Shown here in pieces: positions 1 through 64,000 of a DNA stretch of 64,000 nt. Made by a program: the position numbers and the translations under genes. Within the stretch, counting starts at the first letter, position 1. Each line of letters starts with the position of its first letter. The notes under the pieces are model-generated. The model did not search any database. It was not told the DNA's origin and saw nothing but the letters and a program-made list of their open reading frames with translations. The stretch covers positions 248,001 to 312,000 of the forward strand of contig NW_027140800.1 of assembly GCF_036365525.1 (NCBI RefSeq). Direction: 5' to 3'. Source of the DNA: Heterodontus francisci (lineage: Eukaryota).

Positions 1-3000
1 GATTCTCTCGGGCATCATACCTGCTGAATCAAAAGTGAGTTCTCAATGGGGAAAGACCATTCACCTGCGCACAGTGTGGGAAGAGATTCACTCAGTCATC
101 CTGCCTGCTGATGCACCAGTGAGTACACACTGGGGAGAGACCGTTCACCTGCTCAGAGTGTCGGAAGAGATTCACTCAGTCATCCTACCTTCTGATACAC
201 CAGTGAGTTCAAACTGGGGAGAGACCGTTCACCTGTTCAGAATGTGGGAAGGGATTCACTCAGTCATCCTACCCGCTGATACACCAGTGAGCTCACACAG
301 GGGAGAGGCCGTTCACCTGCTCTGAGTGTGGGATGAGATTCACTCAGTCATCCTACCTGCTGCTACACCAGTGAATTCACACTGGGGTGAATCCATTCAG
401 CTGCTCAGAGTGTGGGAAGTGATTCACTCAGTCATCCAACCTGCTTATATAATAGTGAGTTCACACTGTGGAGAGACCGTTCACCTCCTCAGAGTGTCGG
501 AAGAGATTCACTCAGTCATCATACCTTCTGATACACCAGTGAGTTCACCCTGAGGAGAGACCATTCAGCTGTTCGTTGCGTGGGATGAGATTCACTCAGT
601 CATCCTGCCTGCTGATACACCAGTGAGTTCACACTTGGCAGAGACCGTTCACCTGTTCAGAGTGTGGGAAGGGATTCACTCAGTCATCCTACCTGCTGAT
701 ACACCAGTGAGTTCACACTGGGGAGAGAACGTTCACCTGCTCAGAGTGTGGGATGCGATTCACTCTGTCATCCGACCTGCTGTTGCACCAGGATGTTTAC
801 ACTGCGGAGAGACCGTTCACCTGTTCAGATTGTGGCAAGGGATTCACTCAGTCATACTACCTGCTGATACACCAGTGAGTTCACACTGGGGAGTGACCGT
901 TCACCTGCTCAGAGTGTCGGAAGAGATTCAGTCAGTCATCCTACCTTCTGATACACCAGTGAGTTCACACTGGGGAGAGACCATTCAACTGCTCAATGTC
1001 TGGTAGGAGATTCACTCAGTCATCCTACCTGCTGAAACAACAGTGAGTTGACAATGGGGAGAGACCGTTCACCTGCTCAGAGTGTCCGAAGAGATTCACT
1101 CAGTCATTTTGCCTTCTGATACACCAGTGAGTTCACACTGGGGAGAGACCATTCACCTGCTCAGAGTCTGGTCGGAGATTCAGTCAGTCATCCTTCCTGC
1201 TAAAACAACAGTGAGTTCACAATGCGGAGAGACCATTCACCTGCTCAGAGTGTGGGAAGTGATTCACTCAGTCATCATGCCTTCTGATACACCAGTGAGT
1301 TCACCCTGGGGAGAGACCATTCAGCTGCCCAGAGTGTGGGATGAGATTCACTCAGTCATCCTGCCTGCTGATACACAAGTGAGTTCAGACTTGGCAGAGA
1401 CCGTTCACCTGTTCAGAGTGTGGGAAGGGATTCACTCAGTCATCCTACCTGCTGATACACCAGTGAGTTCACACTGGGGAGAGACCGTTCACCTGCTCAG
1501 AGTGTGGGCAGTGATTCACTCAGTCATCCAACCTGCTTATATAATAGTGAGTTCACATTGTGGAGCGACCGTTCACCTCCTCAGATTGTCGAAAGAGATT
1601 CACTCAGTCATCCTACCTTCTGATACACCAGTGAGTTCACCCTGGGGAGAGACCATTCAGCTGCTCAGAGTGTGGGATGAGATTCACTCAGTCATCCTGC
1701 TGCTGACACACCAGTGAGTTCACACTTGGCAGAGACCGTTCACCTGTTCAGAGTGTGGGAAGGGATTCACTCAGTCATCCTACCTGATGATACACCAGTG
1801 AGTTCACACTGGGGATGAGACCGTTGACCTGCTCAGAGTGTGGGATGAGATTCACACAGTCTTCCTACCTGCTGATGCACCAGTATGTTGACACAGCGGA
1901 GAGACCGTTCACCTGCTCTGAGTGTGGACAGAGATTCACTTAGTCATCCTACCAGCTGATGCATCAGTGAGTTATCACTGGGGAGAGACCGTTCACCTTT
2001 TCAGAGTGTGGAAGGGATTCACTCAGTCATTATACCTGCTGATACACAAGAGAGTTCACACTGGGGAGAGACCATTCACCTGCTCAGAGTGTGGGATGAG
2101 ATTCACTCAGTCATCCTACCTGCTGATACAACTGTGAGCTGAGACTGGGGAGAGACCACTCAACAGCTCCAAGTGTGGGGAGAGATTCCCTTAGACATCC
2201 AAACTGCTGATACACCAGTGAGTTCACAATGGGGAGTGACCTTTCACCGGCTCAGAGTCTGGGAAGAGAATCACTCAGTCACCTTACCTGCTGATACACC
2301 AGTGAGTTCACACAGGGGCGAGACTGTTCACCTGCTCAGAGTGTGGGATGAGATTCACTCAGTCATCCTACCTGCTAATACACCAGTGAGTTCACACTGT
2401 GGAGAGACCATTCACCTGCTCAGAGTGTGGACAGAGATTCACTCAGTCATCCTACCAGCTGATACACCAGTGAGTTCACAATGGTGAGAGACCGTTCACC
2501 TGTTCAGATTGTGTGAATGGATTCACTCAGTCATACCACCTGCCGATACACCAGTGAGTTCACACTGGGGAGAGACCATTCACCTGCTCCGAGTCTGGTA
2601 GGAGATTCACTCAGACATCATACCTGCTGATACAACAGTGAGTTGACAATGGGGAGAGTCCGTTCACCTGCTCAGAGTGTGGGAAGTGATTCACTCAGTC
2701 ATCCTACCAGCTGATACACCAGTGAGTTCACACTGGGGAGAGACCGTTCACCTGCTCAGAGTGTGGGATGAGATTCACTCAGTCATCCTGCCTGCTGATA
2801 CACCAGTGAGTTCACACTGGGGAGAGACCGTTCACCTGTTCAGAGTGTGGGAAGGGATTCACTCAGTCATCCTACCTGCTGATACACCAGTGAGCTCACA
2901 CAGGGGAGAGACCGTTCACCTGCTCAGTGTTGGAGGAGATTCACTCAGACATCCAACATGCTGAAACAACAGTGAGTTCACACTGGGGAGAGTCCATTCA

Positions 3001-6000
3001 CCTGCTCAGAGTGCAGGAAGAGAATCACTCAGTCATCCTACCCGCAGATAAAACAGTGAATTGAGACTGGGAAGAGACCATTCAACTGCTCAGAGTGTAG
3101 GAAGAGATTCACTCAGTCATCCTACCCGCTGATAAAACAGTGAATTGAGACTGGGGAGAGACCATTCACCTGCTCAGAGTGTGGGAAGTGATTCACTCAG
3201 TCATCCAACCTGCTGATACACCAGTGAGTTCGCACAGGGGAGAGACCGTTCACCTTCTCAGAGTGTGGGATGACATTCACTCAGTCATTCTGCCTGCTGT
3301 TACACCAGTGAGTTAACACTGGGGAGAGACCGTTCACCTGCTCAGAGTGTGGGAAGGGATTCACTCAGTCATCCTACCTGCTAATAAACCAGTGAGTTCA
3401 CACTGGGGAGAGACCGTTCACCTGCTCAGAGTCTGGGAAGAGATTCACTCAGTCACCCTACCTGCTGATACACAAGTGAGTTCACACAGGGGAGAGACCT
3501 TTCACCTGCTCAGAGTGTGGGATGAGATTCTCTCAGTCATTCCACCTGCTAGTACACCAGTGAGTTCACACTGGGGAGAGACCATTCACCTGCTCAGAGT
3601 GTGGGACGTGATTCACTCTGTCATCCGACCTGCTGATACAACAGTGAGTTGAGACTGGGGAGAGACCATTCACCTGCTCAGAGTGTGGGACGTGATTCAC
3701 TCTGTCATCCGACCTGCTGATACACCAGTGAGCTAACACTGGGGAGAGACCGTTCACCTGCTCTGATTGTGGACAGAGATTCACTCAGTCATCCTACCAG
3801 CTGATGCACCACTCAGTTCACACTGGGGAGAGACCGTTCACCTGTTCAGATTGTGGCAAGGGATTCACTCTATCATACTGCCTGCTGATACACCAGTGAG
3901 TTCACAGTGGGGAGAGACCATTCACCTGCTCCGAGTCTGGTAGGTGATTCACTAAGGCATCATACCTGCTGATACAACAGTGAGTTGACAATGGGGAGAC
4001 TCCGTTCACCTGCTCAGAGTGTGGGAAGTGATTCACTGAGTCATCCTACCTTCTGATACACCAGTGAGTTCACACTGGGGAGAGATCATTCTCCTGTTCA
4101 GAGTGTGGGATGAGATTCACTCAGTCATCCTGCCTGCTGATACACCAGTGAGTTCACACTGGGGAGAGACCCTTCACCTGTTCAGAGTGCGGGAAGGGAT
4201 TCACTCAGTCATCCTGCCTGCTGATACACCAGTGAGTACACACTGGGGAGAGACCGTTCACCTGCTCAGAGTGTGGGAAAGAGATTCACTCTGTCATCCT
4301 ACCTGCTGATACACAAGTGAGTTGACATTGGGGAGAGACCGTTCACCTGCTCAGAGTGTGGGAAAGAGATTCACTCTGTCATCCTTCCAGGTGATACACC
4401 AATGAGTTATCACTGGGGAGAGACCGGTCACCTGCTCAGAGTGTGGGAAAGAGATTCACTCTGTCATCCTACCTGCTGATACACAAGTGAGTTGACACTG
4501 GGGAGAGACCATTCACCTTCTCAGTGTCTTGTAGGAGATTCTCTCGGGCATCATACCTGCTGAATCAAAAGTGAGTTCTCAATGGGGAAAGACCATTCAC
4601 CTGCGCACAGTGTGGGAAGAGATTCACTCAGTCATCCTGCCTGCTGATGCACCAGTGAGTACACACTGGGGAGAGACCGTTCACCTGCTCAGAGTGTCGG
4701 AAGAGATTCACTCAGTCATCCTACCTTCTGATACACCAGTGAGTTCAAACTGGGGAGAGACCGTTCACCTGTTCAGAATGTGGGAAGGGATTCACTCAGT
4801 CATCCTACCCGCTGATACACCAGTATGTTGACACAGCGGAGAGACCGTTCACCTGCTCTGAGTGTGGACAGAGATTCACTTAGTCATCCTACCAGCTGAT
4901 GCATCAGTGAGTTATCACTGGGGAGAGACCGTTCACCTTTTCAGAGTGTGGAAGGGATTCACTCAGTCATTATACCTGCTGATACACAAGAGAGTTCACA
5001 CTGGGGAGAGACCATTCACCTGCTCAGAGTGTGGGATGAGATTCACTCAGTCATCCTACCTGCTGATACAACTGTGAGCTGAGACTGGGGAGAGACCACT
5101 CAACAGCTCCAAGTGTGGGGAGAGATTCCCTTAGACATCCAAACTGCTGATACACCAGTGAGTTCACAATGGGGAGTGACCTTTCACCGGCTCAGAGTCT
5201 GGGAAGAGAATCACTCAGTCACCTTACCTGCTGATACACCAGTGAGTTCACACAGGGGCGAGACTGTTCACCTGCTCAGAGTGTGGGATGAGATTCACTC
5301 AGTCATCCTACCTGCTAATACACCAGTGAGTTCACACTGTGGAGAGACCATTCACCTGCTCAGAGTGTGGACAGAGATTCACTCAGTCATCCTACCAGCT
5401 GATACACCAGTGAGTTCACAATGGTGAGAGACCGTTCACCTGTTCAGATTGTGTGAATGGATTCACTCAGTCATACCACCTGCCGATACACCAGTGAGTT
5501 CACACTGGGGAGAGACCATTCACCTGCTCCGAGTCTGGTAGGAGATTCACTCAGACATCATACCTGCTGATACAACAGTGAGTTGACAATGGGGAGAGTC
5601 CGTTCACCTGCTCAGAGTGTGGGAAGTGATTCACTCAGTCATCCTACCAGCTGATACACCAGTGAGTTCACACTGGGGAGAGACCGTTCACCTGCTCAGA
5701 GTGTGGGATGAGATTCACTCAGTCATCCTGCCTGCTGATACACCAGTGAGTTCACACTGGGGAGAGACCGTTCACCTGTTCAGAGTGTGGGAAGGGATTC
5801 ACTCAGTCATCCTGCCTGCTGATACACCAGTGAGCTCACACAGGGGAGAGACCGTTCACCTGCTCAGTGTTGGAGGAGATTCACTCAGACATCCAACATG
5901 CTGAAACAACAGTGAGTTCACACTGGGGAGAGTCCATTCACCTGCTCAGAGTGCAGGAAGAGAATCACTCAGTCATCCTACCCGCAGATAAAACAGTGAA

Positions 6001-63800: not shown

Positions 63801-64000
63801 GTTCACACTGGGGAGAGACCGTTCACCTGCTCAGAGTGTCGGACGAGATTCACTCTGCCATCCTACCTTCTGATACACCAGTGAGTTCACACTGGGGAGA
63901 GACATTAAACCTGCTCAGAGTGTGGGAAAGAGATTCACTCTGTCATCCTTCCTGCTGATAAACCACTGAGTTAACACTGGGGATAGACCGTTCACCTGGT
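60814..64000 (+). repeat. Patchwork of shorter block duplications (offsets 1932 = 23 monomers and 1682 = 20 monomers + 2)
   Basis: The variant string TCTTCTGATACACTAGGGAG preceded by CAGTCTTTCTA occurs at 60841 and 62773. Identical ORFs lie at 62070 and 63752. Confidence 0.8.

What the first reader, a model, noticed from the sequence alone, without database searches (positions are those of the whole stretch)
1..64000. A satellite DNA made of one dead zinc finger: ~690 C2H2 units with a fixed TGA at the same codon
Seen: every monomer is one 28-codon C2H2 finger with the TGERPF linker, and nearly all read CAC-CAG-TGA-GTT-CAC (H-Q-stop-V-H). The stop separates the two zinc-binding histidines. 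The array exceeds 57 kb and is far longer than the finger array of a typical ZNF gene. Established: HQRVH with CGA is the usual form, and ZNF-related satellites are known (e.g. mouse MMSAT4). Inference: a coding exon module has been converted into a large non-coding tandem repeat. Possible roles include a heterochromatin or centromere-adjacent satellite, a sink for factors that bind ZNF coding DNA, or a source of small or long RNA complementary to the large ZNF family. I cannot tell from sequence whether it has been described or has any function.
Basis: partly seen in the sequence, partly recalled or inferred. Interest (0 to 1): 0.8.

Follow-up and report, generated by a model that had tools for sequence, protein, structure and literature searches.

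The report
Satellite DNA from one dead zinc-finger
One DNA-binding module of a zinc-finger gene has been copied head to tail about 2,700 times into a quarter-million-base stretch that no longer codes for protein; it is probably functionless, but the genome also holds smaller stages that show how a gene module turns into satellite DNA.

Summary
Real. The window lies inside a 253-kb head-to-tail array of about 2,660 84-bp units, each a decayed copy of one C2H2 finger, in a 6-Gb, probably cartilaginous-fish genome. The stop is an inherited scar, not a signal: units evolve neutrally in all six frames (N/S about 1.1; intact genes 0.45), and no long finger frame opens under TGA readthrough. A 99.9% identical twin on the same scaffold lies beyond a 13-N gap and is probably the other allele. 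A smaller, more diverged array (30 and 48 kb copies) of the same monomer still mixes CGA and TGA; two ZNF genes carry short runs of a different dead finger. One other organism's DNA run shares the TGA unit; two do not. MMSAT4 is a poor precedent (it is dispersed KZFP genes). Best reading: functionless minor satellite grown by unequal exchange. The scan noted inherited stops in ZNF gene copies of other genomes before, not a satellite.

The parts
1..36133 (+). ZNF-derived 84-bp satellite, first block in the window; continues about 119 kb to the left (array starts near G000:C754:128,874)
1878..7366 (+). recent tandem duplication of a 35-unit (2,940-bp) block inside the array
   Evidence: exact 40-mer diagonal at offset 2,940 from 1,878-4,426
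36134..40449 (+). near full-length CR1-type LINE inserted into a unit: ORF1 with GDSL esterase domain, ORF2 with endonuclease and reverse transcriptase, each interrupted by a stop
   Evidence: family name CR1 from the domain layout and short 3' microsatellite tail (own knowledge)
40450..42066 (+). ZNF-derived satellite, short block between the two LINEs
42067..44100 (+). 5'-truncated CR1-type LINE (reverse transcriptase part) with (ATTCTA)n tail
44101..64000 (+). ZNF-derived satellite, last block; continues about 70 kb to the right (array ends near G000:C754:381,535)
47684..57600 (+). recent duplication of a 57-59-unit block (offsets 4,782-4,950 bp)

Best explanation
A minor satellite DNA without function, born from one finger of a C2H2 ZNF exon. 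Shown: single founder monomer, neutral decay, growth by duplication of blocks from one unit to tens of kb, LINE insertions carried along. Inferred: (1) a ZNF exon, itself an 84-bp tandem repeat, lost coding constraint; (2) one finger (Q-S-Y-I helix residues) was amplified by slippage or unequal exchange; (3) a CpG deamination CGA>TGA arose in part of the early units (state kept in the small array); (4) a TGA-bearing subset seeded or overran the large array, so the stop is an inherited scar carried by homogenisation.
For: N/S 1.14 (95% CI 0.79-1.65) in the finger frame for 1,904 distinct units against 0.45 (0.25-0.73) for 182 distinct fingers of 14 intact genes; 0.89-1.14 in all six frames; 185 differences between the two big copies split 130 N: 39 S: 16 stop-related against 125: 43: 17 expected. 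Five bases rare in gene fingers: 2,628 of 2,641 big-array units and 823 of 832 small-array units carry three or more, 2 of 185 gene fingers do. Same consensus in all arrays. At the stop site C>T dominates while the opposite-strand change CAA is nearly absent (132 TGA, 3 CAA in C28), which independent deamination would not give. The same LINE insertion with the same flanks occurs twice 62.4 kb apart at 99.2% identity, and another twice 3,069 bp apart. Twin copies differ by whole-unit indels, and the small array is 30 kb in one copy and 48 kb in the other. Two ZNF genes on C34 carry short tandem runs of another dead TGA finger behind their coding fingers.
Against: No remnant of a parent gene (leader, 3' UTR, stray finger) in 205,790 flanking bases, so the origin from a gene in place is inferred from sequence likeness only. 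The order small array first, big array later rests on CGA content and divergence (pairwise 20% against 15%), not on a rooted tree. A shared TGA unit in another organism's DNA shows persistence, which drift allows but does not require. Neutral codon evolution says nothing against a role at the DNA or RNA level.
Confidence: 0.8

Rival explanations
1. The array regulates the ZNF gene family at RNA or chromatin level: a piRNA/siRNA source or microRNA sponge, or a sink for factors that bind ZNF-coding DNA.
For: Sequence allows it: 139 of 185 fingers from 14 intact genes share a perfect 21-mer with the array, and all 14 genes share a perfect 26-mer. In mammals ZNF-coding repeats are bound by ZNF274/ATRX/TRIM28/SETDB1 (PMC4939920, passages) and targeted by miR-181 (PMC11317165, passages). 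The unit is shared with one other organism.
Against: Matches follow from common descent. In the one run guessed to be RNA, from the same sample as the best DNA holder, T at the stop site is 0.6% of depth against 98% C: a weak hint only (one run, contigs, tissue and library not on record, short RNAs would be lost). Variation is not lower at any conserved motif that I could single out.
Confidence: 0.1
2. It is a centromeric or pericentromeric satellite with a structural role.
For: Unplaced scaffold whose sampled stretches are mostly other tandem repeats and LINEs; higher-order duplications.
Against: All 637 exact 33-mers fall in four arrays (312+312+4+9), about 0.6 Mb of 6 Gb even counting both copies, so it cannot serve more than one or two chromosomes; units are 15% diverged pairwise and LINE-interrupted, unlike an actively homogenised core (own knowledge). 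Assemblies may collapse satellites, so the size is a lower bound.
Confidence: 0.06
3. The array still codes: a giant zinc-finger protein by TGA readthrough or recoding, or a repeat protein in the +1 frame, whose consensus has no stop.
For: The +1 frame consensus is open and gives frames up to 345 codons in the window.
Against: With TGA read as a residue the longest frame within array units on + is 869 codons and frames break all along the window; 470 of 2,641 units have indels; 54 of 2,641 are intact fingers; N/S is 1.08 in the +1 frame and stop-creating changes are not depleted; no Pfam match; 4 weak homologues, apparently frameshifted ZNF predictions; no Rfam match, so no SECIS at gathering score.
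Confidence: 0.02
4. The array is an assembly artefact.
For: The second copy very likely is a false duplication: a 13-N gap at C754:971,407 lies between the copies, the mark of unmerged, usually allelic overlaps in Bionano scaffolds (PMC7649008, passages).
Against: Units are diverse (1,904 distinct of 2,641); the two copies agree unit by unit at 99.9%; short-read contigs of four runs of one sample hold 43-45% of sampled words (may be the assembly's own sample).
Confidence: 0.02

Closest known systems
Mouse MMSAT4 (Repbase 'satellite'; KZFP-related genetic units)
   Same: Consensus made of C2H2 finger repeats with the 84-bp period.
   Different: MMSAT4 is 715 dispersed elements that are KZFP genes or KZFP-like units with an upstream KRAB sequence and transcripts (PMC5363842, passages). 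This is one contiguous array of about 2,660 copies of a single finger, neutral, with no parent-gene part found in the flanks examined.
Ordinary poly-C2H2 ZNF genes and pseudogenes of the same genome
   Same: Unit length, linker and codon usage; nearest gene finger differs from the array consensus at 5 of 84 bases; CGA>TGA is common in dispersed fingers (335 of 1,253 exact TGA 26-mers lie outside the four arrays).
   Different: Genes have 10-23 fingers in one open frame with varied helix residues and N/S 0.45; the array has more than 100 times as many units of one helix type.
Satellite DNAs that arose from parts of other sequences (retrotransposon-derived tandem repeats; gene-bearing macrosatellites such as D4Z4)
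   Same: Amplification of a small piece of a pre-existing element into a long head-to-tail array.
   Different: Source here is a protein-domain exon module of a host gene family. Seen as search listings only (PMC7004042; D4Z4 papers); D4Z4 units keep a gene (own knowledge).
PRDM9 zinc-finger minisatellite
   Same: 84-bp finger units homogenised by unequal exchange and conversion (own knowledge; PMC2779102 seen as listing).
   Different: PRDM9 arrays are short, coding and under positive selection; this one is long, non-coding and neutral.

Membership tests
Satellite DNA | Long uninterrupted head-to-tail array of one monomer, same orientation | tested here: met
   253 kb, 2,641 tiled units, 0 reverse units; broken only by LINE/SINE insertions
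Satellite DNA | Non-coding, neutral sequence change | tested here: met
   N/S 0.89-1.14 in six frames; CI
Satellite DNA | Turnover by unequal exchange: block duplications and copy-number differences | tested here: met
Satellite DNA | Heterochromatic location (H3K9me3, methylation, C-band) | not testable with these tools
   CpG o/e 0.19 against 0.40 in gene fingers fits past methylation but is no test
Centromeric satellite | CENP-A occupancy | not testable with these tools
   no chromatin data
Centromeric satellite | High abundance on many chromosomes | tested here: not met
   637 exact 33-mers all in four arrays on three scaffolds
MMSAT4 / KZFP-related units | Consensus derived from C2H2 finger repeats | tested here: met
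MMSAT4 / KZFP-related units | Dispersed gene-sized elements that are the last exon of a ZNF gene | tested here: not met
   one contiguous array; no leader or 3' UTR of the genome's ZNF genes in 205,790 flanking bases
MMSAT4 / KZFP-related units | Upstream KRAB-coding exon | not tested
   no KRAB search was run
Functional poly-C2H2 ZNF gene | One open frame through the fingers | tested here: not met
Functional poly-C2H2 ZNF gene | Purifying selection on Cys/His ligands and framework | tested here: not met
   653 of 2,641 units are ungapped with four ligands, 54 also stop-free; N/S 1.14
Stop-recoded gene (selenoprotein or readthrough) | Long frame when TGA is read through; SECIS or selection for the stop | tested here: not met
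   no Rfam match; stop codon ranks 7th of 28 codons in conservation

The most novel reading that the evidence does not exclude
A quarter-megabase array of one dead zinc finger, kept in at least two species, acts as a family-wide regulator: transcribed in the germline into small RNAs, or binding the silencing machinery of ZNF exons, it tunes hundreds of zinc-finger genes at once, all 14 sampled of which share perfect 26-base matches with it.
Probability: 0.1. Interest if true: 0.8.

Novelty: new variant of a known kind. Interest (0 to 1): 0.45.

Why it matters
The origin of satellite monomers is usually lost. Here the source (a protein-domain exon module) is legible, and one genome holds a size series: intact genes of 10-23 fingers, short runs of a dead finger behind genes, a 310-520-unit array with the stop still mixed, and a 2,660-unit array with the stop near fixed. 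It gives a natural example for the idea that ZNF exons are recombination-prone repeats held in check only while constrained (PMC4939920 states the idea for mammals). It is also a trap for gene prediction, ZNF counts and read mapping in this genome. A regulatory role would matter far more but has no support yet.

Tried and rejected
Readthrough or recoding of TGA and a coding +1 frame: rejected. Selection to keep the stop: its three bases rank 11th, 22nd and 49th of 84 in conservation: rejected. Independent CpG decay in each unit: rejected by strand asymmetry at the site. Search for parent-gene remains: the unmasked search hit only array units and LINE ends and its output was cut; the flank-only search found nothing. 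The two C34 genes with an exact 26-base match to the CGA form are ordinary 17-finger genes, not shown to be the parent. No RNA holder listed in the run search; this is no evidence on expression. The run guessed to be RNA showed 0.6% T at the stop site: weak hint only. No DNA run of the window's own organism was laid as a positive control; 4 of 24 listed runs were laid. Extent of the scaffold duplication beyond 406 kb was sampled and missed, so it is shown only for about 50-406 kb. Rfam: no match. Literature: ten searches, seven of them aimed at a ZNF-derived or shark satellite, listed no description of this repeat; two shark genome papers searched by passage have no mention of zinc fingers (10.1101/2025.06.08.657570; PMC13100897), and PMC10547256 has no mention of sharks. 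Repbase and Dfam could not be searched, subscription papers are missing and no supplements were read, so a library entry for this repeat may exist.
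Full report
Observation. The window is one 84-bp tandem array on the + strand, with 685 anchors and no reverse copy. Of 680 tiled units, 609 have TGA at the codon between Gln and Val, 2 have CGA; mean identity to the consensus [27 protein letters not shown] is 91%. 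Two LINE insertions interrupt the array, one near full length with esterase ORF1 and endonuclease-RT ORF2, one 5'-truncated. I name them CR1-type from that layout (own knowledge).

Setting. The window is G000:C754:248,001-312,000 in a 6.01-Gb assembly of 2,306 contigs. The finger style, the LINEs and a GPCR-like exon nearby suggest a shark or ray; this is inference from recalled sequence style, and the only named hit was a weak one to a catshark protein. The array runs from about 128,874 to 381,535 (253 kb; 2,641 tiled, about 2,660 estimated units; 2,315 TGA, 17 CGA). A second copy lies at about 1,050,334-1,295,584 (2,579 units; 2,268 TGA). The copies are collinear with their flanks and differ at 289 of 241,310 aligned bases plus whole-unit indels. 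A 13-N gap at 971,407 separates them, which Istace et al. describe as the Bionano mark of unmerged, usually allelic overlaps (PMC7649008, passages). I take them as probably two alleles; read depth was not available to prove it.

Relatives in the genome. A smaller array with the same consensus lies on C28 at 65.953-65.983 Mb (310 units; 132 TGA, 107 CGA), with a collinear twin about 99% identical on C2240 (522 units; 225 TGA, 188 CGA; 48 kb against 30 kb). These four arrays hold all 637 exact copies of a diagnostic 33-mer. Fourteen intact ZNF exons, picked from places with the CGA motif, have 10-23 fingers and varied helix residues. Five bases rare among their 185 fingers mark nearly all array units, so the arrays descend from one founder finger. 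Two ZNF loci on C34 carry short tandem runs (eight and five tiled units) of a different, frameshifted finger, mostly with TGA, behind their coding fingers: an independent small-scale case of the same process. No leader, 3' UTR or stray finger of a parent gene was found in 205,790 flanking bases; the 5' ends of both arrays abut full-length LINEs.

Selection. Variant frequencies give N/S 1.14 (0.79-1.65) in the finger frame against 0.45 (0.25-0.73) for gene fingers, and 0.89-1.14 in the six frames; the small array gives 1.28 (1.01-1.65). The 185 differences between the two big copies within units split as expected under neutrality. The stop codon ranks 7th of 28 in conservation. Reading TGA as a residue opens no long frame. 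The +1 frame has a stop-free consensus but no constraint, no Pfam match and only four weak homologues.

Mechanism. The stop arose at a CpG (94 of 153 gene fingers use CGA) and does so often in dispersed fingers (335 of 1,253 exact TGA 26-mers lie outside the arrays). In the arrays C>T is common and the opposite-strand change almost absent, so the state spread by copying, not by repeated decay. Growth went on at several scales: 35-mer and 57-59-mer duplications, LINE insertions duplicated with their flanks 3 kb and 62 kb apart, and length differences between twins. That the small array is the older stage is inferred from its CGA content and greater divergence; it is not rooted.

Other organisms. 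One 84-base unit was laid on 4 of 24 listed runs. At the stop site the T share of depth was 68% in organism B, 8% in C and 14% in D; at a second diagnostic base 86%, 11% and 16%. B also had 733 contigs at 99% likeness or more, against 160 and 43. So the TGA unit is amplified in B too, one run each, without a positive control and with a bias towards the reference letter that is the same in all runs. The run guessed to be RNA gave 0.6% T, a weak hint that the array is not a large part of that library's finger-bearing sequence.

Comparison. It works like a satellite and meets the sequence-level tests of one; chromatin features are untested. It is not an MMSAT4-type element: those are 715 dispersed KZFP genes and KZFP-like units (PMC5363842, passages). 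In mammals ZNF exons are thought recombination-prone and are covered by H3K9me3 (PMC4939920, passages) and hit by miR-181 (PMC11317165, passages); these make the regulatory rival possible, and 139 of 185 gene fingers share a perfect 21-mer with the array, but shared descent explains that. My searches listed no description of a true satellite made of one zinc finger; Repbase and Dfam were out of reach. Two earlier scan notes on other genomes read shared stops in multiplied ZNF genes as inherited scars; they agree in kind, were not checked, and concern gene copies, not a monomeric array.

Verdict. Real, larger than reported, most likely functionless; a new variant of a known kind whose value is a readable origin and preserved intermediate stages. 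Interest 0.45.

Noticed in passing
G000:C754 about 50-406 kb against 976-1,320 kb; 13-N gap at 971,407-971,419 (L013): The scaffold seems to hold two near-identical copies of one region joined at a 13-N gap, probably a false (allelic) duplication; C2240 likewise mirrors C28 around 65.94-65.99 Mb.
   Followed up: partly
L106 (G000:C34 about 30.236 Mb) and L107 (C34 about 28.262 Mb), - strand: Two related ZNF loci each carry a short tandem run of a frameshifted 82/84-bp finger, mostly with TGA, behind their coding fingers.
   Followed up: partly
window 36,134-40,449 and G000:C754:221.6-226.1 kb: The same LINE insertion with the same flanks occurs twice, 62.4 kb apart, 99.2% identical; usable as a clock for array growth.
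   Followed up: partly
whole array, C754:128.9-381.5 kb: Variants against the consensus are richer in transversions towards A/T (C>A 0.044, A>T 0.042, T>A 0.037, G>T 0.035) than in transitions (0.011-0.031); unexplained.
   Followed up: no
L112:1-400 (G000:C754:50.0-50.4 kb), - strand: C-terminal part of a GPCR-like reading frame; resemblance to the GPR139/142-like family expanded in sharks is recalled, not tested.
   Followed up: no
L025:3,500-4,760 (G000:C754:123.5-124.8 kb): The 5' UTR of the LINE at the array's left edge is itself a tandem repeat of about 147 bp.
   Followed up: no
L002, L021-L024 (C754:60-120 kb), L006/L007/L020, L009, L013: Several other unrelated tandem repeats on the scaffold: a (TG)n-rich minisatellite tract of tens of kb, and further short-unit satellites near 490-550, 690 and 970 kb.
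   Followed up: no
consensus unit, +1 frame (e.g. window 7,642-8,679): The +1 frame of the consensus has no stop and yields spurious repeat ORFs up to 345 codons that gene predictors may call.
   Followed up: yes
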